NCBI GenBank assembly: GCA_934122155.1
Contig: CAKOVX010000006.1
Coordinates: 23-64,022 of the forward strand
DNA length: 64,000 nucleotides
Direction of reading: 5' to 3'
DNA from: an uncultured Clostridia bacterium
GTDB lineage: Bacteria > Bacillota > Clostridia > TANB77 > CAG-508
Below, one piece after another: positions 15,510-46,593 of the stretch (its first letter is position 1; the number at the start of each line of letters is the position of its first letter). The notes beneath the pieces are model-generated. The model did no database searches, was not told the DNA's origin, and saw only the letters and a list, made by a program, of their open reading frames with translations. The translations under genes were made by a program, and so were the position numbers.

Positions 15510-15527
15510 ACATTAACTACTAAGTTT

Positions 15528-15568
15528 AAATCTAGTCATTTCAACAAATGACTAGATTTTTTTTATTT
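15528..15568 (+). terminator. rho-independent terminator (ATCTAGTCAT/ATGACTAGAT + T8)
   Basis: Perfect 10-bp stem followed by a T-run after the kinase gene. Confidence 0.7.
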
Positions 15569-15662
15569 TATTTTTTTAATAAATACTGTACAATTCGACA
15601 AACTATGATATAATGTTGTTGTCATCTTGAGTATACTTACTATAAATATTGAGGTGAAAAGT

Positions 15663-16715
15663 ATGAGAAAAAATATGCAAAGTGCAAACGATAAAGGCTA
15701 TAAAATTATAGCGGTTGATGATGAAGAAGGAATTGTTGACTCTTTATCAATCTTTCTTAAAAGATCTGGCTATAATTTTACAGGAGTTACCGACCCTATT
15801 GAAGCAATTGAAAAGGTAAAAAATGAGCATTTTGATTTAATGATTTTGGACTTTATTATGACACCAATTCATGGTGATCAAGTAGTTGAAGAAATACGCA
15901 AATTCAATAAAGAATTATATATTTTGTTACTAACTGGTCATAAAGATTTGGCTCCACCTCTAGAAACAATCAGAAAATTAGATATTCAAGGTTATTGTGA
16001 GAAAAGTGATAAGTTTGACCAATTACTTCTTTTAATTGAGTCTGGAATAAAATCAATTGAACAAATGAATGAAATTAAAAGAATAAATGAAGAACTTTCT
16101 TCTACTTATGAAAAATTGGAAAGAGCTTATTTAGATAGTATTCAAACTTTACGTTATACAGTTGAAGCAAAAGATCCATACACTAGAGGTCACTCAGATA
16201 GAGTTTCTAAATATTCTGTTTTACTTGGAAAATATTTAGGTTTATCTGACACTGATTTAAAAACTTTAGAGGTTGGTGGATTATTCCATGATATTGGAAA
16301 AATTGGTATTCCTGATAGCATTTTATTAAAAGAATCTAAGCTAACAGATGATGAATATTCACAAATAAAAAATCACCCTGCAATTGGCGCACATATCTTA
16401 TGCAATGCTGAGGTATTTCAAGATATTATACCAATTGTAAAACATCATCATGAAAGATTTGATGGAAACGGTTACCCAGGAAAGTTAAAAGGAACTGATA
16501 TCCCTTATTTAGCTCGTGTAGCAGCTGTTGCTGATACTTTTGATGCGATGACATCAAGAAGAACTTATCGTGATCCTTTAAGTTTAGATGTCGTAAAAGC
16601 TGAAATTGAAAGATGCTCTGGAACACAATTTGACCCAGAAATTGCAAAAGTATTTTTAGATATTTTAAATAATCATTATGATGAAATAAATGAAATCCAG
16701 GAACAATTCAGATAA
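15663..16715 (+). CDS. response regulator with REC + HD-GYP (c-di-GMP phosphodiesterase) domains
   Basis: REC 'KIIAVDDEEG...LMILDFIM'; 'HHERFDGNGYPGKLKG' HD-GYP; start taken at the ATG after SD GAGGTG. Confidence 0.85.
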   Translation: MRKNMQSANDKGYKIIAVDDEEGIVDSLSIFLKRSGYNFTGVTDPIEAIEKVKNEHFDLMILDFIMTPIHGDQVVEEIRKFNKELYILLLTGHKDLAPPLETIRKLDIQGYCEKSDKFDQLLLLIESGIKSIEQMNEIKRINEELSSTYEKLERAYLDSIQTLRYTVEAKDPYTRGHSDRVSKYSVLLGKYLGLSDTDLKTLEVGGLFHDIGKIGIPDSILLKESKLTDDEYSQIKNHPAIGAHILCNAEVFQDIIPIVKHHHERFDGNGYPGKLKGTDIPYLARVAAVADTFDAMTSRRTYRDPLSLDVVKAEIERCSGTQFDPEIAKVFLDILNNHYDEINEIQEQFR

Positions 16716-20997: not shown

Positions 20998-21741
20998 GTG
21001 AAAAAATCAGCTGATTATAGAGCTAGTGCAAGAGAAAAATTGTCTGGAAAGTGGGGTAAAGCTGCTCTTATTTCATTAGGTTACTTTGTAGTATTCTTTG
21101 TTTTAGGTTTTATTGAAGGATTACTTCCTGAAAACATAAAATCTATTTTCTCAATTGCTACAACTATTATTGAAATACCTTTAAGCTTTGGATTACTTAT
21201 ATCTTTCTATAAATTATTTAATGGTGAAGATGCTAAAGCTTTTGACTTTTTAAAATCTGGTTTTTCAAACTTTAAAAGAGCATGGTTAGTTGGATTAAAT
21301 GTTGCGTTAAAAATGATAATTCCAATTATTATTTTAATTGCTGGTATGTCAATCTCAATGGTTACCGGAATAATAACTTTTGCACGAGGAACAGCATCTG
21401 GAAGTTCTTATGCATTTGCAGCAATTGGTGTACTTATGTATATAATAGGTATAATTTGGACTATACTTCAATCATATTATTATCAATTAGCTTACGTTGT
21501 TGCAGTTGACAATGAAGAACTTTCAAATAAAGAAGTGGTAGAAAAATGTAAAGAAATTATGCAAGGTAAACGTTGGAAGCTATTTTGTTTACAATTTTCA
21601 TTTATTGGTTGGGCTATATTAGCAGGTCTAACTTTTGGAATTGGAATGTTATGGTTGGTTCCATATATTCAACTTGCTACAATTTCTTTCTATGAAGATG
21701 CAATTGGTAAAAATGAAGAAGTCAATAATATTGCTGAATAA
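20998..21741 (+). CDS. DUF975 family integral membrane protein
   Basis: GTG start after SD AAAGGGGGG; 'DYRASAREKLSGKWGKAALI' then multiple TM helices. Confidence 0.7.
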   Translation: MKKSADYRASAREKLSGKWGKAALISLGYFVVFFVLGFIEGLLPENIKSIFSIATTIIEIPLSFGLLISFYKLFNGEDAKAFDFLKSGFSNFKRAWLVGLNVALKMIIPIIILIAGMSISMVTGIITFARGTASGSSYAFAAIGVLMYIIGIIWTILQSYYYQLAYVVAVDNEELSNKEVVEKCKEIMQGKRWKLFCLQFSFIGWAILAGLTFGIGMLWLVPYIQLATISFYEDAIGKNEEVNNIAE

Positions 21742-30600: not shown

Positions 30601-30935
30601 ATTCGATACCTTTCCTTTCTATTGGTACAAATTTTGTTGAAATTATAGTAATTTTTCAACTTTTTACCTTCAGTACAAATTTAATTTTATCATATTTTTA
30701 TTAAAAAGTATAGACAAATTTCAAAATATATTATATGATTGTTAAAAATTGGAAGGTGGTGTTAATATATTAATTTAATTGATTATTTTTTCATTATCCT
30801 TATTATCAATAGTTTTATCTTTTTTTATTCATTATATAATTTTTTTGATATTAAAGTTTTTCATAATCTACAAGGTTCAAAATTAAAATTAAAAAATCCC
30901 ACTAATTTTAAATAATTATTTTTAAGGAGGTGTTT

Positions 30936-32655
30936 ATGAATTAAACGAGTTTTATTCATTTTATTTTTTACGCTTATTTTTTGTTTTATTGGTTATAAAA
31001 TATTTTCTCCTATTTATTTTCAAAGCCACATTATTATTGATTATGGTTTACACCCTTTTGATATTTGTATAGAGCAACCTGTTTTATGGAAATATTTAAA
31101 AATATTATTTTTAATTACTTATATTTATTCTGGAATATTTTTTTCTAATTTATTATCTAATGTATTTCATTTGAAAAATAAATCAAAAATAAATAAAAAA
31201 AACAAATTAAATAAAAATAATTATTCTTTAATAAATTCAAATAAAAAATGTGAATTAAAATTATTAGTTGGAGAAAATGTAAATACCAAAGAAATTATTT
31301 ATTTACCTGAAAAAAGTTTATACCAAAATATTTTAATTACCGGAACTATTGGTACTGGAAAAACCAGCAGTGCTATGTACCCATTTACTAAACAATTAAT
31401 TAAATATGAAAATTATAATAATGATAAAAAATTAGGTATGTTGATTTTAGATGTTAAAGGAAATTATTATCGAAAAGTTATAGAATTTGCAGATGAATTT
31501 AATAGGCATGACGATATTATTGTTGTTGAATTAAATGGCAAATATAAATATAATCCTTTGCACAAGCCAAACTTGAAGCCATCTATTCTTGCTAACAGAT
31601 TAAAAACAATTTTATTACTTTTTTCAAAAAATAATTCTGAGAGTTATTGGTTAGATAAATCAGCTCAAATTTTAGAAGAATGTATTAAACTGTGTAGGCT
31701 CTATAACAATAATTATGTTACATTTGATGAGTTACATAAATTAATTACTAATGATAATTATTATTTAGAAAAATTAAATTATTTGCGTGATAATTTTATT
31801 AAAAACATTTTTTCTGAGAGTCAAATTTATGATTTATATTCTAGTTTAAATTTTTTCGAAAAAGAATATTTGAATTTAGATCAAAGAACTATGTCCATTT
31901 TAAAATCTGAAATTACCAGAATTACTAATTGTTTTATTTCTGATTATGATGTTTTAAATACTTTTAACCCTAAACAAGAAGAACTTAATTTTTTTGGTTT
32001 TGAAGAAGTATTAAAAAAAGGAAAAATTGTAGTATTAAATATGAATATAAATGAATATTCAAATTTATCAAAAATAATTGCAGCATATTTAAAATTAGAT
32101 TTTCAAACAGATGTAATGACTAGGCTTGCCAACAGTAAAGACAATAATTTTAGGAGTGTTTGTTTTATTTCTGATGAATATTCTGAATATTGCACAGAAA
32201 CTGACTGTAATTTTTTTTCGCAAAGTAGAGAAGCAAAATGTATAAATATTGTTGCCACACAAAGTTATACTTCTTTATTAAATACTCTTCATGATCAATC
32301 TGCAGTAAATGTTATTATTCAAAATTTAATAAATAAATTATGGTTTAGAAGTGATGACATTTTTACAATTGAAAATGCACAAAAACAAATTGGAAAAGAA
32401 GACAAAGAAAAAATATCAAGAGGAATCTCAGAAAATGCTAAAGAAACTGTTTATAGTTATTTTACTAATTCTTTAAATTCTAAAAATTCTAATATTTCGG
32501 AAACCATTACCACAACTCTTCAAAATGATTTTGTTTATGATACCAATTTTTTTACCAGACATTTGACTAATTTTCACTGTTTAGGTTTTTTATCAACTGG
32601 TACTGAAATTATTCCACCATCTGAATTAAAATTATTTCCATATTTTAATAATTAA
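30936..32655 (+). CDS. type IV secretion coupling protein (VirD4/TraG/TrwB-like ATPase); its 5' end has a 1-nt frameshift or an ATT start
   Basis: SD AAGGAGG followed by ATG-AAT-TAA; from ATT at 30940 an unbroken frame encodes two N-terminal TM helices (VLFILFFTLIFCFIGY; YLKILFLITYIYSGIFF), then Walker A 'GTIGTGKTSS', 'ILDVKGNYY' and 'FISDEYSEY'. Confidence 0.7.
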
Positions 32656-32677
32656 TATTTTTTAGGAGGTTTTATTT

Positions 32678-33022
32678 ATGTTTAAATTTATTTATAAAAA
32701 AAGATTTTTATTTATCTTATTATTTATTTTATTTTTATTTATTCTTTCTTCAGACACATATGCTAATTTTTTTAATGGCAACCCAGAAATTGTAGATAAA
32801 TTAAATTCTGCTTTTGAAAAAATTGAAAGTTGGATGTTAAAATTAGCAACTCCCGCGGCTGCTGTGGCTGTTGCCGTTGGATTATTTATGAAAAAATTTA
32901 GCTTTGGTGATGAAGAAAGACTAAGAGTTGCAAAAAAATTAATTAGAGGCAGTTTATTTTCTTATGCTTTTATTTTAGTTTTAGACCTAATTTTATCTGC
33001 AATTAGTTCTTTATTAACTTAA
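32678..33022 (+). CDS. VirB2/TrbC-like T4SS pilin candidate
   Basis: Signal peptide (...SSDTYA) then two hydrophobic helices separated by a short charged loop (LATPAAAVAVAVGLFM ... LFSYAFILVLDLILSAI). Confidence 0.55.
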   Translation: MFKFIYKKRFLFILLFILFLFILSSDTYANFFNGNPEIVDKLNSAFEKIESWMLKLATPAAAVAVAVGLFMKKFSFGDEERLRVAKKLIRGSLFSYAFILVLDLILSAISSLLT

Positions 33023-33037
33023 TTTGGTGGTGATGTT

Positions 33038-33916
33038 TTGGAAACTTCTAATTTAACAACTTCAATTATTGAAACAATTAATTCTATTTTTGAAACTTTA
33101 TTTTCTTCTATTGATACTACAATTTATTCTGTTTTGGATGAACTAACTTTTATTAATAAAGATATTTTAAATAATTCTATATTTCAAAAAATATTTGATT
33201 CTAATAGTTATAATGGTTTATTAGTAATTGCAAATTCTTTATTAGTTGGATTTTCTCTTTATTATGCCATCCGTTTAATTTATTCTTATTATATGAATTT
33301 ACAAATTGAAAGACCTTATCAATTTATTCTTAAATTATTAATTTTTGGAATTGTAATGAATTGTTCTTATTTTATTTGTAATCAATTTATTCAAATAAAT
33401 AGTTTTATTTCTGATGCAATTCGTACAGTTGGTTTAAATATTTTTGGACATGATATATCTTTTTCTGAATTAATAAATAAATTAAATTATATTTCAATTA
33501 AAGAAAATGAATTTAATATTTTTTCTTTTGATGGGTTAATAAAAAGTTTTATTTCTATTAGTTTATTTAATTTAATCTTTTCATATTCTTTAAGATATAT
33601 AATGGTAAAAGTATTTATTTTAATTACTCCTTTTGCAATATTAAGCTTGATAAATGAATCTACCTCTTGGTTTTTCAAAACTTGGCTTAGAACAATTTTA
33701 TCTTTATTATTTCAACAATCTTTAGTTGCAATTATATTATTAATTATTTTTTCTTTTAATTTTTCTTCAAATAATATTATTTCTCAATTAATGTGTATTG
33801 GTGGAATATATGCACTGGTGCGTGCTAATTCATATATTAGAAGTTTAATTGGTGGTATTTCAACAGATGTTTCAAATAATTTTAATATTGGCAGCAAATT
33901 TTTAAAAAATATTTAA
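33038..33916 (+). CDS. VirB6/TrbL-like polytopic membrane protein
   Basis: 292 aa with at least 5 TM helices, directly downstream of the pilin-like gene; TTG start. Confidence 0.5.
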   Translation: METSNLTTSIIETINSIFETLFSSIDTTIYSVLDELTFINKDILNNSIFQKIFDSNSYNGLLVIANSLLVGFSLYYAIRLIYSYYMNLQIERPYQFILKLLIFGIVMNCSYFICNQFIQINSFISDAIRTVGLNIFGHDISFSELINKLNYISIKENEFNIFSFDGLIKSFISISLFNLIFSYSLRYIMVKVFILITPFAILSLINESTSWFFKTWLRTILSLLFQQSLVAIILLIIFSFNFSSNNIISQLMCIGGIYALVRANSYIRSLIGGISTDVSNNFNIGSKFLKNI

Positions 33917-33930
33917 AAGGAGTTTTATTT

Positions 33931-34212
33931 ATGAAATTTATTTTTCCACAAAATTATAATTTTAAAAATAAATTATTTGGAATAATTGATTATTCAAGTT
34001 TAATTTTTAATATTCTTTGGAATTTAATTGTCTTTTTATTAGTTAATTTATTATTTAAAAACAATAATATCAAAATATTTATTTTTATTATTTTTTCTTT
34101 GCCTATTTTTTTATTTACTATTTTGGGATTTAATCATGAAAATATTTTAAGTGTTTTCATGTATTTAATTAAATATATAAAAAGACCCAAAATATATTTT
34201 TATTCAAAATAA
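33931..34212 (+). CDS. VirB3/PrgI-like small two-TM protein
   Basis: 93 aa with two hydrophobic helices, in the T4SS gene neighbourhood. Confidence 0.45.
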   Translation: MKFIFPQNYNFKNKLFGIIDYSSLIFNILWNLIVFLLVNLLFKNNNIKIFIFIIFSLPIFLFTILGFNHENILSVFMYLIKYIKRPKIYFYSK

Positions 34213-34291
34213 CTTTTTCCTCATAAGTTTATTGTAAATCAAATAGAAAAATGATATAATTTGACAAAACATAACATTGGGGGAGTTTTTT

Positions 34292-35260
34292 ATGAAGTTA
34301 GAGCAAAATGATTTATTACCTTTGTTTTCAAGTACTAGTCTTCCAGATATATTTTTTACAGAATATTTACCTGAAGCAAATGGTGATTATCTTAAAGTCT
34401 ATTTGTATATTTTATTTTTGTCAAAATATGATAAAGATATTAAATTAAATGATTTAAGTAAAAAATTAAATCTTTCTTTTAAGGTAATTCAAGATGCAAT
34501 GAAATATTGGGAAGACCAAAATGTTATTGTTAAGAAAAATACAGGTTATGCTTTTAATAATTTACAAGAAATAGAATTAAATAACTTATATAAGCCTAGA
34601 GTTGCTTTGTCAGCTGAACAAGTACAAAAATCAGCTGAAAGTCAAAAGCGTGCTAAAACTATGGAATATATAAATAATAGATATTTTTCTGGTTTAATGC
34701 CAACTACTTGGTACCCTGATATAGAATTATGGTTTAAAAAATATGGTTTTGATGATGAAGTTATGATGGCATTATTTAATCATTGCTTTGACAAATCTGC
34801 ATTACACAAAAATTATATTCAAACAGTTGCAGATGCCTGGGCAAAAAATTCAATTAAAACATATAATGATCTAGATTTATATTTTGAAAAGCAAGAAGCT
34901 GTTAATAAAATTGCTAATATGGTTATTAAAAAATTGGGCCTTGGCAGACAACTTTCTCAATATGAATATGCTTATGTTGAAAAATGGATAGTTGATTTTA
35001 AATTTAATTTTGATATTATTGAAATTGCTTTAAAAAGAACTACATCAAAAGTAAATCCAAGTTTTGATTATATAGATAAATTATTAACTGATTGGCATGA
35101 TAGAGGTTTTACTTCTGCTGAACAAGTTCAGAAGTTTTTATTAGATATGAAACAAAAAAATAAGGATATTAAAACTTTAGAAAAATCAACAAAAAATTAT
35201 CAAAATTACAATCAGAGAAATTATGATAACTTAAATAGTCTATATGCTAATAAATTATAG
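34292..35260 (+). CDS. DnaD-domain replication initiation/membrane attachment protein (phage/plasmid type)
   Basis: DnaD/DnaB_2-like C-terminal region 'YVEKWIVDFKFNFDIIEIALKRT'; TTGTAA-16-TATAAT promoter at 34233-34260; ATG follows SD GGGGGAG. Confidence 0.75.
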   Translation: MKLEQNDLLPLFSSTSLPDIFFTEYLPEANGDYLKVYLYILFLSKYDKDIKLNDLSKKLNLSFKVIQDAMKYWEDQNVIVKKNTGYAFNNLQEIELNNLYKPRVALSAEQVQKSAESQKRAKTMEYINNRYFSGLMPTTWYPDIELWFKKYGFDDEVMMALFNHCFDKSALHKNYIQTVADAWAKNSIKTYNDLDLYFEKQEAVNKIANMVIKKLGLGRQLSQYEYAYVEKWIVDFKFNFDIIEIALKRTTSKVNPSFDYIDKLLTDWHDRGFTSAEQVQKFLLDMKQKNKDIKTLEKSTKNYQNYNQRNYDNLNSLYANKL

Positions 35261-35269
35261 GAGGTTGTT

Positions 35270-36262
35270 TTGAATAATTCTACTTTAAAATCTCTTTTAA
35301 TTGAATATGATAAAAAAAGAAGAAATGCTGAAAATATTGCCCAAAAAGAAAAAGAAAATTTATATGCGGAATTTCCAGAACTTGATGAAATAGATAAAAA
35401 GTTAAGTTCTTTGGCATTTTCTTCAATGATAGAATTAACTAAAAATAATGATAAAAAAATAATAGAAAATTTGAATTCTAATATTGAATTATTAAAAAAG
35501 AAAAAAGAAGATATATTAAATTCTATTGGAGAAAAAGCAAAAAAAATAATTCCAAATTATGAATGTAAAAAATGTAATGATACTGGATATATTTTTGATG
35601 GAAATTCCACAGAAATGTGTAGTTGTTTAAAACAAAAAATTTATGATATCGAATATAATAAATCAAATATTTCTAATTTAGAAAAACAAAATTTTAATAG
35701 TTTTAATTTAGCTTTTTATTCTGATGAAGTAAATAAACAAAAATATAATTCAGACATCTCACCTAGAGAAAATATTAAAATAATTAAAAATATTTGTGAT
35801 AATTTTATTAATAATTTTGATAATCCTGAACAACATAATTTATTATTTACAGGCAACACTGGTCTAGGAAAAACATTTTTATCTAGCTGTATCGCAAATG
35901 AATTATTAAAAAAAGGGAAAACTGTATTATACCAAACATCTTCAGTTATGCTTGATACAATTATTAATTATCGTTTTGGTAAATCAAATGTTTCTAAGGA
36001 TATATATGATTATTTATTAAATGTAGATTTACTTATTATTGATGATTTAGGAACTGAAGGAATAAACAACATGAAATTAGTTGAATTATTTAATATTTTA
36101 AATAGTAGACTTTTAACCCCAAATAAAAAAACTATTATTTCTACTAATTTAAGTTTGCAAAATTTATTTAATACTTATGATGAAAGAATTGTTTCAAGAA
36201 TTGTGGGAAATTATGATATATGTTACTTTTTCGGAGATGATATTCGTTTTAAAAATAAATAA
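35270..36262 (+). CDS. DnaC/DnaI-like helicase loader (IstB-like AAA+ ATPase) with N-terminal Cys4 zinc motif
   Basis: 'CKKCNDTGYI...MCSC'; Walker A 'GNTGLGKTFL'; Walker B 'LLIIDDLGTE'; TTG start after SD AGGAGG. Confidence 0.8.
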   Translation: MNNSTLKSLLIEYDKKRRNAENIAQKEKENLYAEFPELDEIDKKLSSLAFSSMIELTKNNDKKIIENLNSNIELLKKKKEDILNSIGEKAKKIIPNYECKKCNDTGYIFDGNSTEMCSCLKQKIYDIEYNKSNISNLEKQNFNSFNLAFYSDEVNKQKYNSDISPRENIKIIKNICDNFINNFDNPEQHNLLFTGNTGLGKTFLSSCIANELLKKGKTVLYQTSSVMLDTIINYRFGKSNVSKDIYDYLLNVDLLIIDDLGTEGINNMKLVELFNILNSRLLTPNKKTIISTNLSLQNLFNTYDERIVSRIVGNYDICYFFGDDIRFKNK

Positions 36263-36294
36263 AAAGATATTTCTTTTCAGAAATATCTTTTTTG
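36261..36294. terminator. bidirectional terminator (AAAGATATTTCT/AGAAATATCTTT)
   Basis: Hairpin with flanking A/T runs between the convergent DnaC-like gene and the 88-aa gene. Confidence 0.6.
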
Positions 36295-36298
36295 TTTT

Positions 36299-36565
36299 TT
36301 ATCTTTCTTCCCCAGCATTTTTTTCTTTTTCTCTCTTACTTTGTTCTTTTCTTGCATCTAATATATTTATTTCGTCCATTATAAGTTGGTGCATATTTTT
36401 TAAACCTTTGAAACGTTCTGGCAATTTGCTTTCAAATTTCCTGATGTCTTCTTCTATAAGCTCTTTTTCTTTTGGAAATTGCCCTTCTCTAGTTGTAGTA
36501 ATCTTATCATATAATTCATATTCAACAATAAGTAATAGCTGGGAAATTATTTTATCTTCATCCAT
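36299..36565 (-). CDS. hypothetical charged coiled-coil protein, probably co-transcribed with gyrA (3-nt gap)
   Basis: 88-aa ORF starting 3 nt after the gyrA stop. Confidence 0.6.
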   Translation of the reverse strand: MDEDKIISQLLLIVEYELYDKITTTREGQFPKEKELIEEDIRKFESKLPERFKGLKNMHQLIMDEINILDARKEQSKREKEKNAGEER

Positions 36566-36568
36566 TTT

Positions 36569-39025
36569 TTATTCTCCTTCATTTTCATCTGGAGCTATCG
36601 TTTCAATGCTAACAACCTTTCCTTCATTTGTTCTCATTAATGTTACACCTTGAGTAGATCTACCTAAGATACTAATATCTTTAACTTTTAATCTAATAAT
36701 AGTACCGTTATCTGTAATTAACATTACATCTTCATCATCTGTTGCAATACGTATACCAACTAAGCTTCCTGTTTTTGGTGTTATCTTATATGTTGTAACA
36801 CCTTTTCCACCTCTAGTTTGTACTCTATATTCATCTAATTCTGTTCTTTTTCCAAATCCATTTTCAGTAATTGCAAGTAATGTTGCATTTTTATTGCCTT
36901 CAATTATAGATTCCATTCCAATAACATAATCTTCACTATCTAGCCTAATACCTATAACACCTTGTGCTGTTCTTCCCATTGGTCTAACATCTTTTTCACT
37001 AAATGTTATACAAGAACCTTGGCTAGTAACTAATACTACATTATCTTGACCATCTGTTAATCTAACATCTATTAACTCATCATCTTCTCTTAATGTAATA
37101 GAAAGAAGTCCTGTTTTTCTAGTTGAATCAAATTCAGTTAGTGGAGTCTTTTTAATAAATCCTTGTTTTGTTCCCATTAACAAATATTTTCCATCTGCAA
37201 AATTACTAATTGGAATAACTGCTGATATTTTTTCTCCTGGGTCTAACCTTAATAAATTAACTATTGCAGTACCTTTTGCAGTTCTTCCTGCTTCTGGTAT
37301 TTCATACCCTCTTAATCTATATAATTTTCCTTTATTACTAAAGAATAATAGGGTATCATGAGTTGAAGCTGTAAATATTTGTTTAACAAAATCTTCTTCT
37401 CTTGTAGCTAATCCTGTAATTCCTTTGCCTCCACGTTTTTGGCTTTTATATGTATCTATTGGCATTCTTTTTACATATCCAAAATGTGTTAAAGTAATTA
37501 CTGTTTGTTCTTCTTTTACTAAATCTTCAATATTAATTTCGCCTTCTGCTGCAACGATTTTAGTTTTTCTTTCATCACCATATTTTTGTTTAATTTCTAA
37601 TAATTCTTCTTTAATAATATCAAATACTAATTTTTCACTTGCTAAAACAGCTCTTAAGTGTTCAATTAATTTCATTAATTCATTATATTCTTCATCTATT
37701 TTTTCTCTTTGCAATCCTGATAAAGTTTTTAATCTCATATCCAAAATAGCTTGTGCTTGAATATCTGATAAATTAAATCTTTCCATTAATCTTTCTTTTG
37801 GGTCATCATATGAACTACGAATAATATTTATTACTTCATCAATATTATCTAATGCAATTCTTAATCCTTCTAATATATGTGCTCTAGCTAATGCCTTATC
37901 TAAGTCAAATTGAGTTCTACGAAGAATAACTACTTTTCTGTGGTCAATATAGTAATCTAAGCATTGTCTTAGTGTTAAAACTTTTGGTTCTCCATTAACT
38001 AATGCAAGCATTATAACACCGAATGTATCTTGTAATTGTGTATGTTTATATAATTGATTTAATATAACTTGTGCATTTACATCTCTTTTTAATTCAATTA
38101 CAATTCTTACTTTTGATTCTCTATCAGATTCATCTCTAATTTCTGATATTCCTTCAATTCTTTTATCTTTTACTAATTCTGCAATGTTTTCAATTAATTT
38201 TGCTTTATTTACCTGATATGGAAGTGAATTTACAATAATTCTTTGCTTATTATTACTCATCTCTTCAATTTCACTTTCACCACGAACAGTAATTTTTCCT
38301 CTACCTGTTGTATATGCTTGTTTTATTCCCTCTATTCCTAAAATAAGTCCTTCTGTTGGAAAATCAGGTCCTTTTATAATCTCCATTAATTGCTCATCAG
38401 TAACATCATCTTCATCAATTATTTTTATAATCCCATCAATTACTTCTGTTAGGTTATGTGGTGGAATATTTGTTGCCATACCTACTGCAATTCCTGAAGA
38501 ACCATTTATTAATAAAGCTGGTATTTTGGCTGGAAGTACGGTTGGTTCTTGTAAACGATCATCATAGTTTGGCATAAAATCAACTGTATTTTTTTCAATA
38601 TCAGTAAGCATTGTTTCTGCTATTTTTGCCATTCTTGCTTCTGTATACCTCATTGCTGCTGCACCATCACCATCAATTGAACCAAAGTTTCCATGTCCAT
38701 CAATTAATGTATATCTTTGTGTAAAATCTTGAGCTAATCTTACCATTGCATCATATACTGAAGCATCTCCATGTGGATGGTATCTACCTAAAACAGAACC
38801 TACTGTATTAGCACATTTTCTGTAAGGCTTGTCTGATGTGATTCCATCCTCATACATAGCGTATAAAATTCTTCTATGTACAGGTTTTAAACCATCTCTT
38901 ACATCTGGAAGAGCTCTCGATACAATAACACTCATAGCATAATCAATATATGCTGTACGCATCTCTTTTTCAATATCGCGTTCTACTATTTTTCCGTCAT
39001 TTCTTTTTTCGTCGTTTGCTTCCAT
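36569..39025 (-). CDS. gyrA: DNA gyrase subunit A
   Basis: 818 aa; 'AMSVIVSRALPDVRDGLKPVHRR' and active-site Tyr region; C-terminal beta-pinwheel repeats. Confidence 0.97.
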   Translation of the reverse strand: MEANDEKRNDGKIVERDIEKEMRTAYIDYAMSVIVSRALPDVRDGLKPVHRRILYAMYEDGITSDKPYRKCANTVGSVLGRYHPHGDASVYDAMVRLAQDFTQRYTLIDGHGNFGSIDGDGAAAMRYTEARMAKIAETMLTDIEKNTVDFMPNYDDRLQEPTVLPAKIPALLINGSSGIAVGMATNIPPHNLTEVIDGIIKIIDEDDVTDEQLMEIIKGPDFPTEGLILGIEGIKQAYTTGRGKITVRGESEIEEMSNNKQRIIVNSLPYQVNKAKLIENIAELVKDKRIEGISEIRDESDRESKVRIVIELKRDVNAQVILNQLYKHTQLQDTFGVIMLALVNGEPKVLTLRQCLDYYIDHRKVVILRRTQFDLDKALARAHILEGLRIALDNIDEVINIIRSSYDDPKERLMERFNLSDIQAQAILDMRLKTLSGLQREKIDEEYNELMKLIEHLRAVLASEKLVFDIIKEELLEIKQKYGDERKTKIVAAEGEINIEDLVKEEQTVITLTHFGYVKRMPIDTYKSQKRGGKGITGLATREEDFVKQIFTASTHDTLLFFSNKGKLYRLRGYEIPEAGRTAKGTAIVNLLRLDPGEKISAVIPISNFADGKYLLMGTKQGFIKKTPLTEFDSTRKTGLLSITLREDDELIDVRLTDGQDNVVLVTSQGSCITFSEKDVRPMGRTAQGVIGIRLDSEDYVIGMESIIEGNKNATLLAITENGFGKRTELDEYRVQTRGGKGVTTYKITPKTGSLVGIRIATDDEDVMLITDNGTIIRLKVKDISILGRSTQGVTLMRTNEGKVVSIETIAPDENEGE

Positions 39026-39060
39026 TATTTTACCTCTTTTCTAGTATTTTTCACTCCTTT

Positions 39061-39089
39061 ATTATACTAAAACACTATAAAATTTGCAA
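39061..39089 (-). promoter_or_regulatory. sigma-A promoter of gyrA (TTGCAA-17 nt-TATAAT)
   Basis: Near-consensus -35/-10 with 17-nt spacer about 35 nt upstream of the gyrA ATG. Confidence 0.6.
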
Positions 39090-39092
39090 GTA

Positions 39093-39128
39093 AAAAATCG
39101 TGATTTTATGGCTTAAATCACGATTTTT
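39093..39128 (-). terminator. rho-independent terminator (AAATCGTGATTT/AAATCACGATTT) closing the island-2 operon
   Basis: Perfect 12-bp stem followed by a T-run. Confidence 0.6.
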
Positions 39129-39301
39129 TTATACTATTTAATTAAAATTTCAGCAAGCTTTTTTTGCTCTTCTGTTAAATTAAAATCATGCCCATTATTT
39201 TTTATAATTAGGTGTAAATTTTCTATTTGTCTTGCTTGTTTCAATGTTTCTTCTAATGGTAAAGTTTGTTTTAATCTATCTCTTATTTTTTCATATTCCC
39301 T

Positions 39302-39859
39302 TTACATTCCATCAAAATCTTGATTCTGATAATAATTTTTCCAATTATTTTCATACTTCCCTAATTTTTCTATATTATCTAACTGATTAGCAAATTCTGT
39401 CTCAATATTACTACTAACATTATCCAAAATAACATTTTTCCCTTGTCTAATTAAACTTCCAATACTTGATGGAATTAAGCCCTTTTTTACTGTATAACTT
39501 AAGGCTTTATCTAAAGTATCAGAAATACCATCAATTATTCCTCCATTTTTTACTGCATTTTGTGCCTGCGAAACACTTTCAAATTTTCCAGTAAATATTC
39601 CAGTTATACTTTTACCTAATTCAATCCCCTTTTCCACAGTTGCACTTATTCCTTCTTTTAGTCCTCCTTTTATTAAACTGTTTTTTATATCTATAACTTG
39701 ATTTTCAACAAAATCTGGTAATACCCACCTTAGTCCTAAATCAATTGCTGTATTTATTACTTTTCCCATTGTTGTATTTAAAAATCCACTTTGCTCTTTT
39801 TCTGTTACTAATTCATTATTATTTAATTGATTATTATTTAATATTAATTCTTTTTCCAT
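39302..39859 (-). CDS. hypothetical protein (185 aa); in-frame ORF continues 55 codons past its TAA stop
   Basis: Canonical SD + ATG; Gly/Ile-rich; frame stays open after the TAA (39134..39301). Confidence 0.6.
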   Translation of the reverse strand: MEKELILNNNQLNNNELVTEKEQSGFLNTTMGKVINTAIDLGLRWVLPDFVENQVIDIKNSLIKGGLKEGISATVEKGIELGKSITGIFTGKFESVSQAQNAVKNGGIIDGISDTLDKALSYTVKKGLIPSSIGSLIRQGKNVILDNVSSNIETEFANQLDNIEKLGKYENNWKNYYQNQDFDGM

Positions 39860-39875
39860 ATTAAATTTCTCCTTT

Positions 39876-41093
39876 TTAGGTTTTTAACAAATTATTATTT
39901 ATTTTTAAATATTCTTTTTTTAAATTTTTATTTAATTTATTTATATTATTTTTATTTATAATTAAATTGTATTTTGGGTTAAAAGATAATTTTCCTAATA
40001 TATTAAATCCAGAAAAAACTTTTTTGAGAATAGAAATATCTATTGAATTTTCATTATATTTATTAAATAAAATATTTATATTTTTTTGAGGTATTTCCCA
40101 ATTATTTATATAAATATCTAATAATTTTTTTGCTTTTTTTATTTCTAATAAATTAGCTTCTAAAATAAAAATATCTAAATTACTATTTTTTATTATTTCT
40201 TTTGTATAATCAAAAAAACATTCTGAAGAAGTGTCTATAATAATTACATCATATTTTTCTTTTAATTTTAATAAAATATTTTTTACTTTTTCACTACTAA
40301 TTTTGTACTTAGAATCAAATAATAAATTTATTCCTGATATTAAATCCATTTTTGAATTTACTTTAATTATCAATTCTTCTATTTTTATTTCCTTTAATAA
40401 ATTATTATTTTTTATTTTATTTTGTATTTTTTGAGAATATTTTTTAATTCCTAATATTGTATGCAAACTATTATTTAAAACATCAAAATCAATAATTAAT
40501 ATTTTATTTTTATTATTTAATAATGAATTTGCTAAATTAATTGTACATATACTTTTTCCTACACCATTTGTTCCTGTAATGCTAATTATTTTATTTTCTT
40601 TTAAATCACTATCTTGTTTTTTATTAAAAATATTTATTAATTTTTTTAAATATACTTTTTTATTATTTATTTTATTATTTTGTTTTTCTAATAACATTTG
40701 TTTTATTTCTTTCAATTCATTATTTATTTCCATATTTTTATTATTATTTATTATTTTAATTATTTCTTCAATTTCAATTTGATTATTATAAAAAATATTA
40801 TAAATTCCTTTGGCATATAAATAATTTTCTAATTCTATATTTTTATTTTCTAAAAATAAAATTATTTCAATACTTGAATTTATATTTTTTATTTTTTCTA
40901 TTAATTTTTTTATTTCAATATTTCCCGGTAATAATTCACTAATAATTAAAAAGTCAATATTATTTTCTTTTTCTAAATATTCTAATATTCCTTCTTTATA
41001 TTGTATATCTTCTATTATTACTTCAAAATTATTTTGCTTTTTTAATTTTTCATTTAATATTTCATTTCCTATTGCAGTAATTATTTTTTTCAT
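39876..41093 (-). CDS. ParA/MinD-superfamily ATPase with N-terminal receiver-like domain (TadZ/CpaE-like)
   Basis: 'ISITGTNGVGKSICTINLANSL' deviant Walker A; N-terminal about 120 aa resembles a REC fold; ATG overlaps the upstream stop (ATGA). Confidence 0.7.
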   Translation of the reverse strand: MKKIITAIGNEILNEKLKKQNNFEVIIEDIQYKEGILEYLEKENNIDFLIISELLPGNIEIKKLIEKIKNINSSIEIILFLENKNIELENYLYAKGIYNIFYNNQIEIEEIIKIINNNKNMEINNELKEIKQMLLEKQNNKINNKKVYLKKLINIFNKKQDSDLKENKIISITGTNGVGKSICTINLANSLLNNKNKILIIDFDVLNNSLHTILGIKKYSQKIQNKIKNNNLLKEIKIEELIIKVNSKMDLISGINLLFDSKYKISSEKVKNILLKLKEKYDVIIIDTSSECFFDYTKEIIKNSNLDIFILEANLLEIKKAKKLLDIYINNWEIPQKNINILFNKYNENSIDISILKKVFSGFNILGKLSFNPKYNLIINKNNINKLNKNLKKEYLKINNNLLKT

Positions 41094-42949
41094 AATAAGT
41101 TCCTTTCTTTATTAGGTTCAATTATCTCTTTTTCAAAATCAGCAGCTTCAATTTTTGTTAAAATATGTTCTGCTCCAATAAACATTAAACATTCTCCTCT
41201 TTTTAATGATTTTATTTCTATTTTTTCTTTTTCTGATAAATTTGTATATTTTTCTAATACTTTTATATTTTCTTCTTCTAAAGCAAAAAATGTTTTTATT
41301 TCTGAATTATTTAAAATACTTTTTCCATATGTACCATCTTCTAAGCTAAATAGGTCTGAAATATCTTGAGTTATTGCAACTGCACTTCCTCCATATTTTC
41401 TAATTGTTTTAAATATTTTATATATAAAGCTTGCTACTTCTTTATTAGAAGTTACTCCAATTAACCTCCATATTTCATCCATATAAATTGCTTTATTTTT
41501 ATTTCGATCTTTTTTTATTTTATTCCAAAATAATTCAATAAAAATAAACATACCATATTTTAAATTGTCTTCTCCTAATTCATAAATATCTGCAACAATT
41601 AAAGGATTATTCAAATTTACATTAGTATAATTATTAAAAAATTTTAGTGAGCCTTTTACAAATGGAATTAATTTTATTTGGAATTTTTTTGTTTTTTCAT
41701 CTTGTCCTAATAAATTATAAAAATCTTCTAAAATTGGCATATCATATGTTGTTTTAAAAATTGGTTTAATTATTATTTTATTTTCTTCTTTTTTATATAA
41801 TGTTTCATCATCAAATGTAATCTGTTTATTTTTATATAATTCAATTATTTTTTCTTCTAATATTGCTTTTTCTTCTTCAGTTAAATTACCAAAAATTAAA
41901 TTAAAAAATCCAATTAATTTACCTAATTTATTTGCTAAATATCCCTGCTCATTATCTTCTAAACTTTCTTCCATAATATCAAATACATTTATATATGAAT
42001 TAGAATTTGGTCCTATTTTTAAAAGTGAACCTTCTAATTTTTCACACATATTTCCATATTCTCTATCTGGATCTATAATATATTGTTCTATTCCTAATAA
42101 TCTATTTCTTAAAACTAATAATTTTGTATAAAATGATTTTCCTGCACCACTGGTTCCAAAAATACATATATTTGAATTTTTATATTTATTTTTATTATAT
42201 CTATCAATAAATACTAAAGAATTATTATAAATATTAGTCCCAATAAAAATACCTTCTTCATCAAATATCGCAGAAGAAATAAATGGATATGTTGCAACTA
42301 AACCACTTGTTAATACATTTCTTTTGGCTGCATTTTTTAAATCTATTGAATTTTCCATAAGAGGTAATGCTGTTAAATAAGCTTGTTCTTGTCTAAAATA
42401 TGCTCTTCTTGTTTGCATTCCTTTACTTTGTATAATACCTTCTAATTTATTTAATAAATATTCTAATTCTTTTATATCATTCGAAAATGTTGTTACATAA
42501 ATATATAAAAAATATAATTCTTCGTTATTTATTTGCATTTCTTTTCTAATATATTTTGCATCATTATATGTAAATGCTGCGATATCTATATCTTGTCTAT
42601 TTTGATTTCCTTCTTTTAAATCAACTCCTACATTTCCAATATGATATGTTAAATCTCTTATTGTTTTATATGTATCCTGTTTTTCATAAAAAATAGAAAT
42701 ATCTAAATTTATATTTGTATCAATAATTGATTTTAATATTAAATCTGTTTGTTCTCTAAAATAATTTGTAATAATTAATGTAGAATAATAAATATTATCG
42801 ATTTCAATAAATTTTGGATTTGAAATATTTATATAAGATGGACTTAAATAATCTTTGTTTGAAAAAGAGCCCTGAAAAAATAATTTATTTTCTTTTTTAT
42901 TTATTTTATTTAAAAAATTATTATTTATTTTATTTAATATTTTTTGAAT
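41090..42949 (-). CDS. VirB4/TraC-family conjugative T4SS ATPase (about 619 aa if initiated at ATT)
   Basis: 'NICIFGTSGAGKSF', 'IIDPDREYG', 'IYMDEIWRL'; the frame stays open 137 codons upstream of the first ATG back to SD AGAGGTG-5 nt-ATT; the N-terminal extension looks like the VirB4 N-domain. Confidence 0.75.
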   Translation of the reverse strand: MQKILNKINNNFLNKINKKENKLFFQGSFSNKDYLSPSYINISNPKFIEIDNIYYSTLIITNYFREQTDLILKSIIDTNINLDISIFYEKQDTYKTIRDLTYHIGNVGVDLKEGNQNRQDIDIAAFTYNDAKYIRKEMQINNEELYFLYIYVTTFSNDIKELEYLLNKLEGIIQSKGMQTRRAYFRQEQAYLTALPLMENSIDLKNAAKRNVLTSGLVATYPFISSAIFDEEGIFIGTNIYNNSLVFIDRYNKNKYKNSNICIFGTSGAGKSFYTKLLVLRNRLLGIEQYIIDPDREYGNMCEKLEGSLLKIGPNSNSYINVFDIMEESLEDNEQGYLANKLGKLIGFFNLIFGNLTEEEKAILEEKIIELYKNKQITFDDETLYKKEENKIIIKPIFKTTYDMPILEDFYNLLGQDEKTKKFQIKLIPFVKGSLKFFNNYTNVNLNNPLIVADIYELGEDNLKYGMFIFIELFWNKIKKDRNKNKAIYMDEIWRLIGVTSNKEVASFIYKIFKTIRKYGGSAVAITQDISDLFSLEDGTYGKSILNNSEIKTFFALEEENIKVLEKYTNLSEKEKIEIKSLKRGECLMFIGAEHILTKIEAADFEKEIIEPNKERNLL

Positions 42950-43468
42950 ATTATCACCTCTTTTTTATTTTTAATTAAAAAATATTATATAATAATTAAT
43001 TTTTTTATATTATTATAAATTATTATATATTGTCTTTTTGTTCAATATATATTAGTTCTATCTTTTTCTGTTAGTTCTATTTTTTGTTTTTTATTCTATC
43101 ATTTTAAAATTTTGATTTTACACTAAAACTTTATAATTTTGTGCATTTTTTATTTTGTCAAATTAGCATTTTTAGAATGTATAATTACATTTTTTTATTT
43201 CACAGCTGTATTAAAATTGTTCATCTATATCTATTATTTGTTTTTATGTATACCATCCGATTTGTTTCTGAATTTTATGTTTTAAAACATTTTTCCTTTA
43301 TTCCCCAGTGTTTTATTGGTTGTTTTTGTGTGGTTTTATATTCATTTTTTATTATTTTTCTAATTTCAATTTGTACTATTTCTTTATTGTTTTCCATACT
43401 TAACTTTTTTATCCAATTTTATAGTTGTCATTTTGTTACTAAATTTGTTCTAAATACATTCTTGTGTC

Positions 43469-44008
43469 TAAAAATGAAAAAAGTACATTAACAATATCTT
43501 TTTGGTTGTGTATTTCTTCAACCATATTTCCACACCTAGATAAACACTCCTTTATTTTAAAATATTCATCTGTTAGCTTTTCTGTCAAATATTCATTATT
43601 GTTTAATATTTCTTTGTTATTATTCTTACATTTTAGTATAATATAAAAGTTTTTGGATGATGATTTTTTTTCTTGATTTATTTTTTTTATATATTGGATA
43701 TATTTTTTAGATATTTGTTGAATAAAAATTTTTTCTTGACTTAAATTTTTTTGTATATTATTAATATGTTTTGATAAATCTTCTTTATTACTTTGAATTA
43801 ATATTTGAAAATTAAAATTACATGTTTTTAAAAAAATTTTATATGAATTTAATATTGCTTCTTTTTCTAGTTCTGATTTTAAATTAAAATTTATTGGATT
43901 TATTTTTATTATTTTTATATAACTGTTATTTTTTAATTTAATAATTCCATTATCTAATATACACTGAATTGGAAGCCATTCTTGAACAGTATTTATTTTT
44001 TTTATTAT
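43469..44008 (-). CDS. hypothetical 179-codon ORF with perfect SD but no ATG/GTG/TTG (putative ATA start)
   Basis: AAGGAGGTG-7 nt-ATA ATA AAA...; open frame to TAG at 43469; absent from the ORF track for lack of a canonical start. Confidence 0.4.
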
Positions 44009-44621
44009 TAAATTACACCTCCTTTTATAAAAATTATTAATAATATTTTGGAATGTTTTAAGAAATAATAAATATTTTGAAAAAATAAAATAATTAAAAA
44101 TTTATATATTTATATTAACTTTTTTTATTATAATTGTCAATAAAAATCATATGCCAAAATTCGACAATATTTTTTTGAATAATAAAATTTTTTTTGGACA
44201 TATTAATAATGTAAGGTTAATATTAGTTGAACTAAGAGTTTTATGAGGTCGATTTTAGGCTTTTTGAAATTCGAGCAAAAATTAATTATTGTTTAATTAT
44301 TTTAGATGATAATTAGTTGGAGATGAGAGTATATTATTTGTATTTAAGCTGTATTAAATTTTATTTTTGTTAATTTAATGAAGGTAGCATTTGTTATATA
44401 TGGTTGAAAATATAGGTAATATATTCGAAGTTAAGATTATTATTGTATATTTTAATGATTATTATTAGTCCTTATAGGATGAATTTAGTTATTATGTGTG
44501 CATTATTAGTCGAGCAACTGATTTATATATTTGGTGCATAGTTTATTTGTATAGTAATATACATTAGATTAAAAATTAGGTATATAGGTTTTAGCTGTAA
44601 ATTAATATTAGCTTTACTGAT

Positions 44622-44658: not shown

Positions 44659-46593
<1,935 letters not shown>

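What the first reader, a model, noticed from the sequence alone, without database searches (positions are those of the whole stretch)
30924..44024. Three island genes have perfect Shine-Dalgarno sequences but no ATG/GTG/TTG start: candidate ATT/ATA initiation
In the coupling-protein gene, AAGGAGG-5 nt-ATG-AAT-TAA is followed, one nucleotide out of frame, by a long ORF beginning ATT (30940) that encodes the expected N-terminal TM helices. In the VirB4-like gene, AGAGGTG-5 nt-ATT (42949) opens a frame that runs 137 codons before the first ATG (42538) and resembles the VirB4 N-domain. In the 179-codon ORF, AAGGAGGTG-7 nt-ATA ATA (44008) opens a frame with no canonical start for 140 codons. Neighbouring island genes use normal ATG or TTG starts. 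The three cases are either genuine rare AUU/AUA initiation sites, possibly regulatory as in infC, or early signs of gene decay.
Basis: seen in the sequence. Interest (0 to 1): 0.65.

Follow-up and report, generated by a model that had tools for sequence, protein, structure and literature searches.

The report
Conserved AUU/AUA starts on secretion-ATPase genes
Three intact, conserved genes for the ATPase motors of a chromosomal type IV secretion-like machine in an uncultured gut Clostridia lineage (TANB77/CAG-508) most likely start translation at AUU or AUA behind unusually long ribosome-binding sites, a rare but known way to keep protein output low, and one that makes gene finders truncate or miss them.

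Summary
All three genes have a strong Shine-Dalgarno (SD) sequence followed by ATT or ATA, and no usable ATG/GTG/TTG. Two corrections: the third ORF is 189 codons, not 179, and the region is not an island. It is the conserved oriC neighbourhood (dnaA-dnaN-recF-gyrB ... gyrA-dnaI-dnaB) of a CAG-508-like genome.

In 10-17 independently assembled relatives:
- ATT sits at the VirD4-like start in 9 of 10 lineages.
- ATT sits at the VirB4-like start in 7 of 10.
- ATA or ATT sits at the orf189 start in 8 of 10.
- The remaining lineages carry ATG or TTG at or next to the same position.

In-frame stop codons often lie directly before the ATT/ATA. The codons upstream of the first canonical start are under purifying selection (dN/dS about 0.1-0.4). 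Seven housekeeping genes in the same loci always use ATG or TTG.

The three sites carry the longest SD matches in the window (10, 9 and 8 nt), the pattern shown experimentally for AUU/AUA starts in Staphylococcus aureus. Decay, assembly error and downstream starts are rejected.

orf189 is the split-off N-domain of VirB4 (TrsD-like). At the VirD4-like site, an out-of-frame ATG-AAT-TAA mini-ORF is a subclade feature.

Verdict: new members of a known kind. Initiation is inferred, not shown.

The parts
30923..32655 (+). VirD4-like coupling-protein gene with its initiation region. Extended SD TAAGGAGGTG at 30923-30932, and the proposed ATT start at 30940 (571 codons, stop at 32653-32655).
   Evidence: Pfam TrwB_AAD_bind scores 44.8 bits against a cut-off of 20.5. 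Hydrophobic segments lie at residues 1-27 and 55-73. ATT with an 8-10 nt SD is found in 9 of 10 lineages. dN/dS over codons 2-77 is 0.10-0.38.
30936..30944 (+). Out-of-frame two-codon mini-ORF ATG-AAT-TAA, overlapping the ATT start by two bases.
   Evidence: The sequence is identical in L004 and L006 and reads ATG-TAT-TAA in L019. It is absent in L014-L018 and L020.
41090..42961 (-). VirB4-like ATPase gene (C-terminal two thirds of a VirB4). SD AGAGGTGAT at 42953-42961, and the proposed ATT start at 42949 (619 codons).
   Evidence: NCBIfam conju_CD1110 model positions 183-730 match residues 27-594. ATT is conserved in window, L001, L004, L005, L006, L007 and L012; window, L004, L006 and L007 have no canonical codon before the conserved domain. 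dN/dS over codons 31-137 is about 0.1.
43439..44024 (-). orf189, a TrsD-like stand-alone VirB4 N-domain. SD AAGGAGGTG at 44016-44024, and the proposed ATA start at 44008 (189 codons).
   Evidence: It matches positions 1-128 of conju_CD1110, 6-140 of VirB4_CagE and 12-200 of TrsD. ATA is found in 5 lineages, ATT in 3 and ATG in 2. The frame opens exactly at ATA after a TAA in L006 and L013, and 2 codons before ATT after a TGA in L001, L004 and L007. dN/dS is 0.16-0.42.
32678..34212 (+). Other genes of the secretion-like module with canonical starts: TrbC/VirB2-like (32678-33022, ATG), VirB6-like (33038-33916, TTG) and a 93-aa protein (33931-34212, ATG).
39137..41093 (-). CpaE/ParA-like ATPase (39876-41093, ATG) and the homologue of a 241-aa protein (39137-39859, ATG) that carries an in-frame TAA at 39302-39304 in this window.

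Best explanation
The three genes are functional and are translated from non-canonical initiation codons: AUU for the VirD4-like and VirB4-like genes, AUA for orf189. In each case the 30S subunit is held in place by an unusually long SD:anti-SD helix of 8-10 bp. That helix puts the weak codon in the P site at an aligned spacing typical of this genome.

AUU and AUA are poorly accepted by fMet-tRNA and are discriminated against by IF3. The expected result is a low, capped output of the motor ATPases of a chromosomally fixed type IV secretion-like machine. The pilin-like, VirB6-like and accessory genes keep ATG or TTG starts.

Shown here:
- Canonical starts are absent.
- The SD, the start codon and the open frame are conserved across lineages.
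- The codons upstream of the first canonical start are under purifying selection.
- The pattern is restricted to the ATPase genes.

Inferred, not shown:
- That initiation actually happens at these codons.
- That the effect is down-tuning rather than tolerated drift under AT mutation pressure.
- That expression is sensitive to IF3.

At the VirD4-like site in the window's subclade, an out-of-frame ATG is also well placed behind the same SD. It probably diverts most ribosomes into a Met-Asn-stop mini-ORF, either as a decoy or as a feeder for re-initiation one base further on. This feature is lineage-restricted, so it is not required for AUU use.
For: 1. Independent assemblies from different samples carry the same codons. 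L004 (Hadza MAG), L006 and L019 have GGAGGTGTTTATG(A/T)ATTAAACG.

2. Start-site tables show VirD4-like ATT in 9 of 10 lineages, VirB4-like ATT in 7 of 10, and orf189 ATA/ATT in 8 of 10. ATG or TTG sits at or next to the homologous position in the rest.

3. ORF boundaries support these starts. An in-frame stop lies directly before the ATT in window, L004 and L006 (VirD4-like) and directly before the ATA in L006 and L013 (orf189). A TGA inside the SD lies 2 codons before the ATT in L001, L004 and L007.

4. dN/dS upstream of the first canonical start is 0.10-0.38 for VirD4-like codons 2-77, about 0.1 for VirB4-like codons 31-137, and 0.16-0.42 for orf189.

5. The K/N-rich VirB4-like codons 2-30 evolve freely but stay open. 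The chance of no stop in 30 codons of this composition is about 0.02, and about 0.0007 for the 56 codons in L004.

6. gyrA, gyrB, dnaN, recF, dnaA, dnaI and dnaB_2 use ATG or TTG in all 64 gene-lineage pairs of the same loci.

7. The three sites have the longest SD matches in the window and no sequestering RNA structure.

8. There is experimental precedent in Firmicutes. S. aureus infC, cvfC1, ccpN and citZ use AUU or AUA, always with extended SDs, and give about 10% of AUG output (PMC13009471). In E. coli, AUU/AUA give 1-2% of AUG, and infC and pcnB are the confirmed cases (bioRxiv 10.1101/063800).
Against: There is no direct evidence of initiation: no ribosome profiling, N-terminal peptide or reporter data, and the organism is uncultured.

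ATT and ATA are very common codons in a 17-27% GC genome, so finding one 5-9 nt after an SD is weak evidence taken alone.

For the VirB4-like gene, codons 2-30 are unconstrained (dN/dS about 1). The exact start inside that stretch therefore rests on SD and ATT conservation only.

L005 and L012 have an ATG 14-17 codons downstream of the ATT, just before the conserved domain, and could use it.

Ile at the VirD4-like start is also conserved as an internal residue in lineages with an upstream ATG (MSLFIKR, MCVIKR). Part of the ATT conservation may therefore reflect the amino acid.

At site 1 the better-placed out-of-frame ATG should outcompete AUU for the shared SD.
Confidence: 0.8

Rival explanations
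1. Gene decay: the canonical start codons were lost by mutation and the three genes are young pseudogenes.
For: Distant lineages have ATG or TTG at the homologous positions (L010, L012, L013, L015). A neighbouring module gene in the window carries a nonsense codon. L001 has a frameshifted VirD4-like gene and L005 a shortened orf189.
Against: All three ORFs are full length in nearly every lineage. dN/dS is 0.04-0.4, including the regions upstream of any canonical start. The ATT/ATA state persists across dS of 0.5-1.3, and the SDs are conserved and extended.
Confidence: 0.03
2. Assembly or sequencing error hides a canonical start, for example a 1-2 nt indel at 30936-30945.
For: ATG-TTA-ATT-AAA-like N-termini (MLIKH, MLKR) exist in relatives. 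The window could therefore be read as a 2-nt deletion relative to them.
Against: Identical sequence occurs in assemblies from unrelated samples (L004, L006; variant L019). L014, the source of the MLIKH protein, actually reads GTG-TTA-ATT with its GTG abutting the SD. Sites 2 and 3 would need base substitutions rather than indels, and they recur in 7-8 lineages.
Confidence: 0.01
3. Translation starts at the first downstream canonical codons (TTG 31171, ATG 42538, TTG 140 codons into orf189), giving N-terminally truncated proteins. The upstream frames are untranslated.
For: This is what gene callers do. The public entries include VirD4-like calls of 488, 520 and 557 aa, and no orf189 gene is called in L001 or L013.
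Against: None of those codons has an SD. The upstream codons are under purifying selection. They also encode the two TM helices of the coupling protein and part of the VirB4 domain that matches models from residue 27. The downstream canonical codons are not conserved in position.
Confidence: 0.05
4. Site 1 only: ribosomes start at the well-placed ATG (30936) and reach the VirD4-like frame by a +1 shift at AAT-TAA, or by termination and re-initiation one base downstream, rather than by direct 30S initiation at AUU.
For: ATG lies 5 nt after GGAGG and is a far stronger start codon. GGAGGTGTTTATG(A/T)ATTAAACG is conserved in four lineages at 78-97% protein identity. The stop overlaps the ATT.
Against: Six other lineages keep the SD plus ATT but have no ATG (L014, L016, L017, L018, L020) or use TTG (L015). 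tRNA-Asn re-pairing from AAU to AUU has a central mismatch. The SD is 8 nt, not about 3 nt, from the shift codon as it is in prfB. These last two points rest on established knowledge, not on a test here.
Confidence: 0.12
5. The AUU/AUA starts are real but not regulatory. They are tolerated products of strong AT mutation pressure on weakly expressed genes, with long SDs as compensation.
For: The module is the most AT-rich part of the window at 17-22% GC. ATA, ATT and ATG interchange at orf189. A fourth module gene (CpaE-like) has lost its ATG in one lineage only.
Against: ATT is kept at the VirD4-like and VirB4-like starts over saturating synonymous divergence although ATG is one mutation away. 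Equally AT-rich neighbours (TrbC-like, 93-aa, VirB6-like) keep ATG or TTG in all lineages.
Confidence: 0.3

Closest known systems
AUU/AUA start codons with extended SD in Firmicutes (S. aureus infC, cvfC1, ccpN, citZ; B. subtilis ccpN), PMC13009471
   Same: AUU or AUA start, a very long SD:anti-SD match at proper spacing, and conservation of both in orthologues. Gene finders miss or truncate the genes. The expected effect is output of about 10% of AUG.
   Different: Those cases were mapped by retapamulin ribosome profiling and by reporters, whereas here the evidence is comparative only. Here three genes, and four in one lineage, belong to one functional module. They encode ATPases of a secretion-like machine rather than regulators or metabolic enzymes.
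E. coli infC and pcnB AUU starts
   Same: A weak AUU start limits translation, and IF3 discriminates against it (established knowledge; cited).
   Different: infC autoregulation works because the product is IF3 itself, and these gene products are not IF3. No feedback loop is evident here.
TrsD/TrsE (TraD/TraE) of Gram-positive conjugative plasmids and CD1110-family VirB4 ATPases
   Same: orf189 matches TrsD and the first ~130-160 model positions of VirB4 families. The 619-aa protein matches the remainder. A VirD4-like coupling protein, a TrbC-like protein and a VirB6-like protein are also present.
   Different: Identity to any plasmid VirB4 is 34% or less. The conju_CD1110 score of 299.5 bits is below its 325-bit cut-off. 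The genes sit at a fixed chromosomal position flanking gyrA/dnaI/dnaB next to oriC in every relative. No relaxase or integrase was seen in the region.
Start-stop or minimal upstream ORFs and the prfB +1 frameshift site
   Same: An SD-served ATG is followed after one sense codon by a stop that overlaps the main start. There is also a stop codon in the A site next to a possible shift.
   Different: The mini-ORF is present in only 4 of 10 lineages. The SD spacing and the slippery codon do not fit the prfB pattern.

Membership tests
Non-canonical (AUU/AUA) bacterial initiation site | No in-frame ATG/GTG/TTG that could yield the conserved N-terminus | tested here: met
   The first canonical codons lie 77, 137 and 140 codons downstream. 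None lies upstream within the open frame.
Non-canonical (AUU/AUA) bacterial initiation site | SD at functional spacing, extended in length | tested here: met
   SD matches of 10, 9 and 8 nt are the longest in the window. The aligned spacing of 6-8 nt falls within the 3-10 nt range of canonical genes here.
Non-canonical (AUU/AUA) bacterial initiation site | Start codon and SD conserved in orthologues; coding constraint begins at that codon | tested here: met
   The exception is VirB4-like codons 2-30, which are unconstrained in sequence but stay open.
Non-canonical (AUU/AUA) bacterial initiation site | Direct demonstration of initiation (TIS profiling, toeprint, N-terminal peptide, reporter) | not testable with these tools
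   The organism is uncultured and no expression data were available.
infC-type autoregulatory AUU | The gene product (IF3) controls use of its own weak start | tested here: not met
   The products are VirD4-like and VirB4-like proteins. Only the general IF3 sensitivity of AUU/AUA could apply.
Pseudogene | Disrupted frame and relaxed selection | tested here: not met
   Full-length ORFs in 7-10 lineages and dN/dS of 0.04-0.4.
Mobile genomic island / ICE | Variable presence, integrase or relaxase, insertion at a tRNA with flanking repeats | tested here: not met
   The same gene order occurs next to dnaA/gyrB/gyrA in all relatives with GyrA 86-98% identical. The nearest plasmid VirB4 is 34% identical. 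No integrase or relaxase domain was found in 28-47 kb. Repeats were not searched.
VirD4-type coupling protein | TrwB/TraG-type NTP-binding domain plus N-terminal TM helices | tested here: met
   Pfam TrwB_AAD_bind scores 44.8 bits against a cut-off of 20.5. Two hydrophobic segments lie at residues 1-27 and 55-73.
VirB4 ATPase, CD1110 family (NCBIfam NF045971) | Score above the curated cut-off over the full-length model | tested here: not met
   The score is 299.5 bits against a cut-off of 325, and only model positions 183-730 are covered. The N-terminal part is on the separate orf189. Pfam P-loop_TraG is met (77.2 bits against 25.8), so this is a VirB4-class ATPase but not an equivalog.
prfB-type programmed +1 frameshift (site 1) | Slippery codon that re-pairs in +1, an in-frame stop, an SD about 3 nt upstream, and conservation in orthologues | tested here: not met
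   The stop is present. However, the SD lies 8 nt from AAT, and the ATG is absent in 6 of 10 lineages.

The most novel reading that the evidence does not exclude
The AUU/AUA codons form a co-ordinated translational throttle on the motor ATPases (VirD4-like, both halves of a split VirB4, and the CpaE-like ATPase in one lineage) of a domesticated, oriC-flanking type IV secretion-like machine that is core to TANB77/CAG-508 gut bacteria. Expression of the machine would then track IF3 activity or growth state. In one subclade a two-codon decoy ORF sharing the SD adds a second layer through termination and re-initiation one base away.
Probability: 0.2. Interest if true: 0.65.

Novelty: new member of a known kind. 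Interest (0 to 1): 0.45.

Why it matters
Confirmed non-AUG/GUG/UUG starts in bacteria are few. Here three cluster in one module and stay conserved across many species, which points to selection on start-codon weakness rather than accident.

There is also a practical cost. Public gene calls for this abundant gut lineage are wrong. VirD4-like entries of 488-557 aa lack their membrane anchor, for example a 488-aa cluster with 252 member sequences. The TrsD-like gene is simply not called in several genomes. As a result, a conserved secretion-like system in TANB77 is easy to overlook, and this clade has been linked to immunotherapy response (PMC11680825).

The sites also give clean test cases for the rule that an extended SD rescues a weak start codon in low-GC Firmicutes.

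Tried and rejected
- Genetic code 4 was considered because TGA precedes the ATT at site 1. It was rejected because long, tightly packed ORFs are obtained with TGA as a stop.
- Rfam found only tRNAs. Folding the three initiation regions gave no structure better than shuffled sequence.
- Scans of genome contigs and metagenome contigs with the CpaE-like protein returned only 2 and 4 loci, because the chosen peptide patterns were low-complexity. Relatives were obtained through exact-protein look-ups instead.
- A fourth ATA candidate at ksgA (25896) was rejected, since an SD plus ATG at 25860 fits the KsgA N-terminus.
- Pfam gave no hit for orf189, but NCBIfam identified it.
- The upstream ATG in L001 VirB4-like (protein P0001, 'MAQGDDNI') was rejected as the true start. 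It has no SD, and the 95%-identical L007 has a TAA there.
- Caller-chosen starts just 5' of the SD in L011 (orf189), L016 and L020 (both VirD4-like) were rejected for the same reason.
- The TANB77 'pilus' cluster from the literature is a different Tad-type locus.
Full report
**What is in the sequence.** The window is 25-30% GC and reads well with TGA as a stop codon. At 30923-30944 the plus strand reads TAAGGAGGTG-TTT-ATG-AAT-TAA. One base out of frame, ATT (30940) opens a 571-codon frame, with an in-frame TGA directly before it. On the minus strand, AGAGGTGAT-AAT-ATT (ATT at 42949) opens a 619-codon frame that begins only 5 codons earlier after a TAA; its first ATG is 137 codons in. Also on the minus strand, AAGGAGGTG-TAATTTA-ATA-ATA (ATA at 44008) opens a 189-codon frame whose first canonical codon is 140 codons in.

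**Context: not an island.** Pfam and NCBIfam identify the genes. On the minus strand the order is dnaA, dnaN, recF, gyrB (44659-46590), orf189, the VirB4-like gene, a CpaE/ParA-like ATPase, a 241-aa-family protein, then gyrA (36569-39025). On the plus strand, in order of decreasing coordinate, lie dnaI and a dnaB_2 gene, a 93-aa protein, a VirB6-like protein, a TrbC/VirB2-like protein and the VirD4-like gene, which abuts a tRNA cluster. The GyrB protein belongs to a 90%-identity cluster that includes Clostridium sp. CAG:508, which places the genome in the uncultured gut order TANB77. The same gene order is found in every relative recovered, with GyrA 86-98% identical. The closest plasmid VirB4 is only 34% identical. 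This is a fixed chromosomal module next to oriC, not a recent insertion.

**What orf189 is.** orf189 matches the first ~130-160 positions of VirB4 family models and nearly the whole TrsD model. The 619-aa protein matches VirB4 models from about position 183 onward. VirB4 is therefore split into two genes, as in trsD/trsE of Gram-positive plasmids. The three unusual starts all belong to motor ATPases: VirD4 and both halves of VirB4.

**Comparative test of the starts.** I recovered DNA for the start regions from 10 lineages per gene.

- VirD4-like gene: GGAGGTG, then 5-8 nt, then ATT-AAA/AAG/ATA-CGN is found in window, L004, L006, L014, L016, L017, L018, L019 and L020. L015 has TTG one codon upstream.
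- VirB4-like gene: ATT follows a conserved SD in window, L001, L004, L005, L006, L007 and L012. Window, L004, L006 and L007 have no canonical codon anywhere before the conserved domain. L010 and L011 use TTG and L013 uses ATG at about the same position.
- orf189: window, L005, L006, L011 and L013 have ATA. L001, L004 and L007 have ATT. L010 and L012 have ATG. In L006 and L013 a TAA stands directly before the ATA, and in L001, L004 and L007 a TGA inside the SD closes the frame two codons before the ATT.

Where gene callers found an upstream ATG or TTG (L001 VirB4-like; L011 orf189; L016 and L020 VirD4-like), that codon lies 5' of the SD, has no SD of its own, and is not conserved in the nearest relative.

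**Selection.** NG86 estimates between the window and each relative are as follows.

| Region | dN/dS |
|---|---|
| VirD4-like, codons 2-77 | 0.10-0.38 |
| VirB4-like, codons 31-137 | about 0.1 |
| orf189, whole gene | 0.16-0.42 |
| VirB4-like, codons 2-30 (K/N-rich) | about 1 |

The K/N-rich stretch evolves freely but stays open, which would happen by chance about 2% of the time for 30 codons of this composition and 0.07% for the 56 codons in L004. VirD4-like residues 1-27 and 55-73 are the two hydrophobic segments expected for a coupling protein. Starting at any downstream canonical codon would remove one or both of them.

**Specificity.** In the window, 3 of about 48 genes lack a canonical start, and all three belong to the module. 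Across loci, seven housekeeping genes use ATG or TTG in all 64 gene-lineage pairs. The TrbC-like, VirB6-like, 93-aa and 241-aa genes are also canonical throughout. In L011, the CpaE-like ATPase additionally has an SD plus ATT-ATA and no canonical codon for 105 codons. The non-canonical sites have SD matches of 8-10 nt, against 4-7 nt for most canonical genes. They are not buried in RNA structure.

**Mechanism.** The pattern matches what was shown experimentally in S. aureus. There, AUU/AUA starts of infC, cvfC1, ccpN and citZ are always paired with extended SDs, are conserved, and give about 10% of AUG output (PMC13009471). In E. coli, AUU/AUA give 1-2% of AUG, and infC and pcnB are the confirmed natural cases. 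I therefore conclude that the three genes are most likely translated from AUU/AUA with the long SD compensating, and that the likely consequence is low output of the motor ATPases. Whether this is selected tuning or tolerated AT-driven drift cannot be settled here. The persistence of ATT at two genes over near-saturated synonymous divergence, next to equally AT-rich genes that keep ATG, favours tuning.

**The mini-ORF at site 1.** ATG-AAT-TAA shares the SD and overlaps the ATT. It is identical in L004 and L006 and reads ATG-TAT-TAA in L019, but it is absent in L014-L018 and L020. It is therefore a subclade feature, probably a decoy or a re-initiation feeder. A prfB-like +1 frameshift fits poorly.

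**Rejected readings.**
- Assembly error is rejected because the same sequence occurs in unrelated assemblies.
- Pseudogenes are rejected because the frames are intact and under purifying selection.
- Downstream starts are rejected because they have no SD, are not conserved in position, and would delete constrained sequence.
- A mobile island is rejected because synteny is conserved.

**Limits.** Everything rests on comparative sequence analysis of metagenome assemblies. No expression or protein evidence exists for this uncultured lineage. Lineages are not independent samples, so the counts are descriptive only.

Noticed in passing
window 30940-34212 and 39137-44024: A type IV secretion-like gene set is split into two blocks flanking gyrA-dnaI-dnaB next to oriC, and it is syntenic in every relative examined. 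It comprises VirD4-like, TrbC/VirB2-like, VirB6-like, 93-aa, CpaE-like and 241-aa-family genes plus a split VirB4. No relaxase or integrase was seen nearby. It looks like a domesticated core machine of TANB77/CAG-508, distinct from the published Tad pilus cluster of that order.
   Followed up: partly
window 39302-39304 (minus strand): The homologue of a conserved 241-aa module protein carries an in-frame TAA where relatives have GAA. The 55 codons after it are still about 90% identical to L001, which suggests a very recent nonsense mutation or a base error.
   Followed up: partly
L011 11846-12160: In this lineage the CpaE-like ATPase gene also lacks any canonical start for 105 codons. It has GAAAGGAGA-AAA-ATT-ATA in front of the conserved KKIITALGNE N-terminus, and the public gene call is truncated to 335 aa.
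   Followed up: partly
window 42950-43438; L010 9961-10001: The spacer between orf189 and the VirB4-like gene is about 490 nt in the window but only 40-80 nt in L010-L012. A TTGACAAAA motif lies 10-35 nt upstream of the VirB4-like SD in L001, L005, L006 and L007, and about 190 nt upstream in the window. This suggests an insertion in the window's spacer and a promoter close to the SD.
   Followed up: no
protein ids P0241, P0244, P0246-P0259; L001 8248-10000; L013 6494-7522: Public gene calls for this lineage are systematically wrong at these genes. VirD4-like entries of 488-557 aa lack TM1 or both TM helices (one cluster has 252 member sequences), and the orf189 homologue is not called at all in several contigs.
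   Followed up: partly
window 33038 and 35270: The VirB6-like gene and dnaI use TTG starts that are conserved as TTG in most lineages: VirB6-like in 11 of 12 (GTG in L018) and dnaI in 6 of 8 (ATG in L011 and L013).
   Followed up: partly
window 40001-44000: GC content falls to 17-19% over the VirB4-like/orf189 block, and to about 21.5% over 32-36 kb, against about 27% in the flanks. The genes are nevertheless core and syntenic.
   Followed up: no
L001 about 21005-21040; L005 7325-7891; L010 5501-6575: Relatives show isolated disruptions: a T-homopolymer frameshift in the L001 VirD4-like gene, a shortened orf189 in L005, and a split recF in L010. These are probably assembly errors in MAGs, but they were not checked.
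   Followed up: no
L010 9350-9392: In L010, orf189 starts with ATG but has no SD next to it. Instead, an AAGGAGG-served ATG 31 nt upstream opens an out-of-frame small ORF that overlaps the start. This may be translational coupling replacing the AUU/AUA solution.
   Followed up: no
window 9232-16712: A single-module NRPS-like reductase-terminated protein (C-A-T-R, 1432 aa) is followed by a histidine kinase and a response-regulator/HD-domain protein. This is unusual cargo for a genome of about 1.3 Mb.
   Followed up: no
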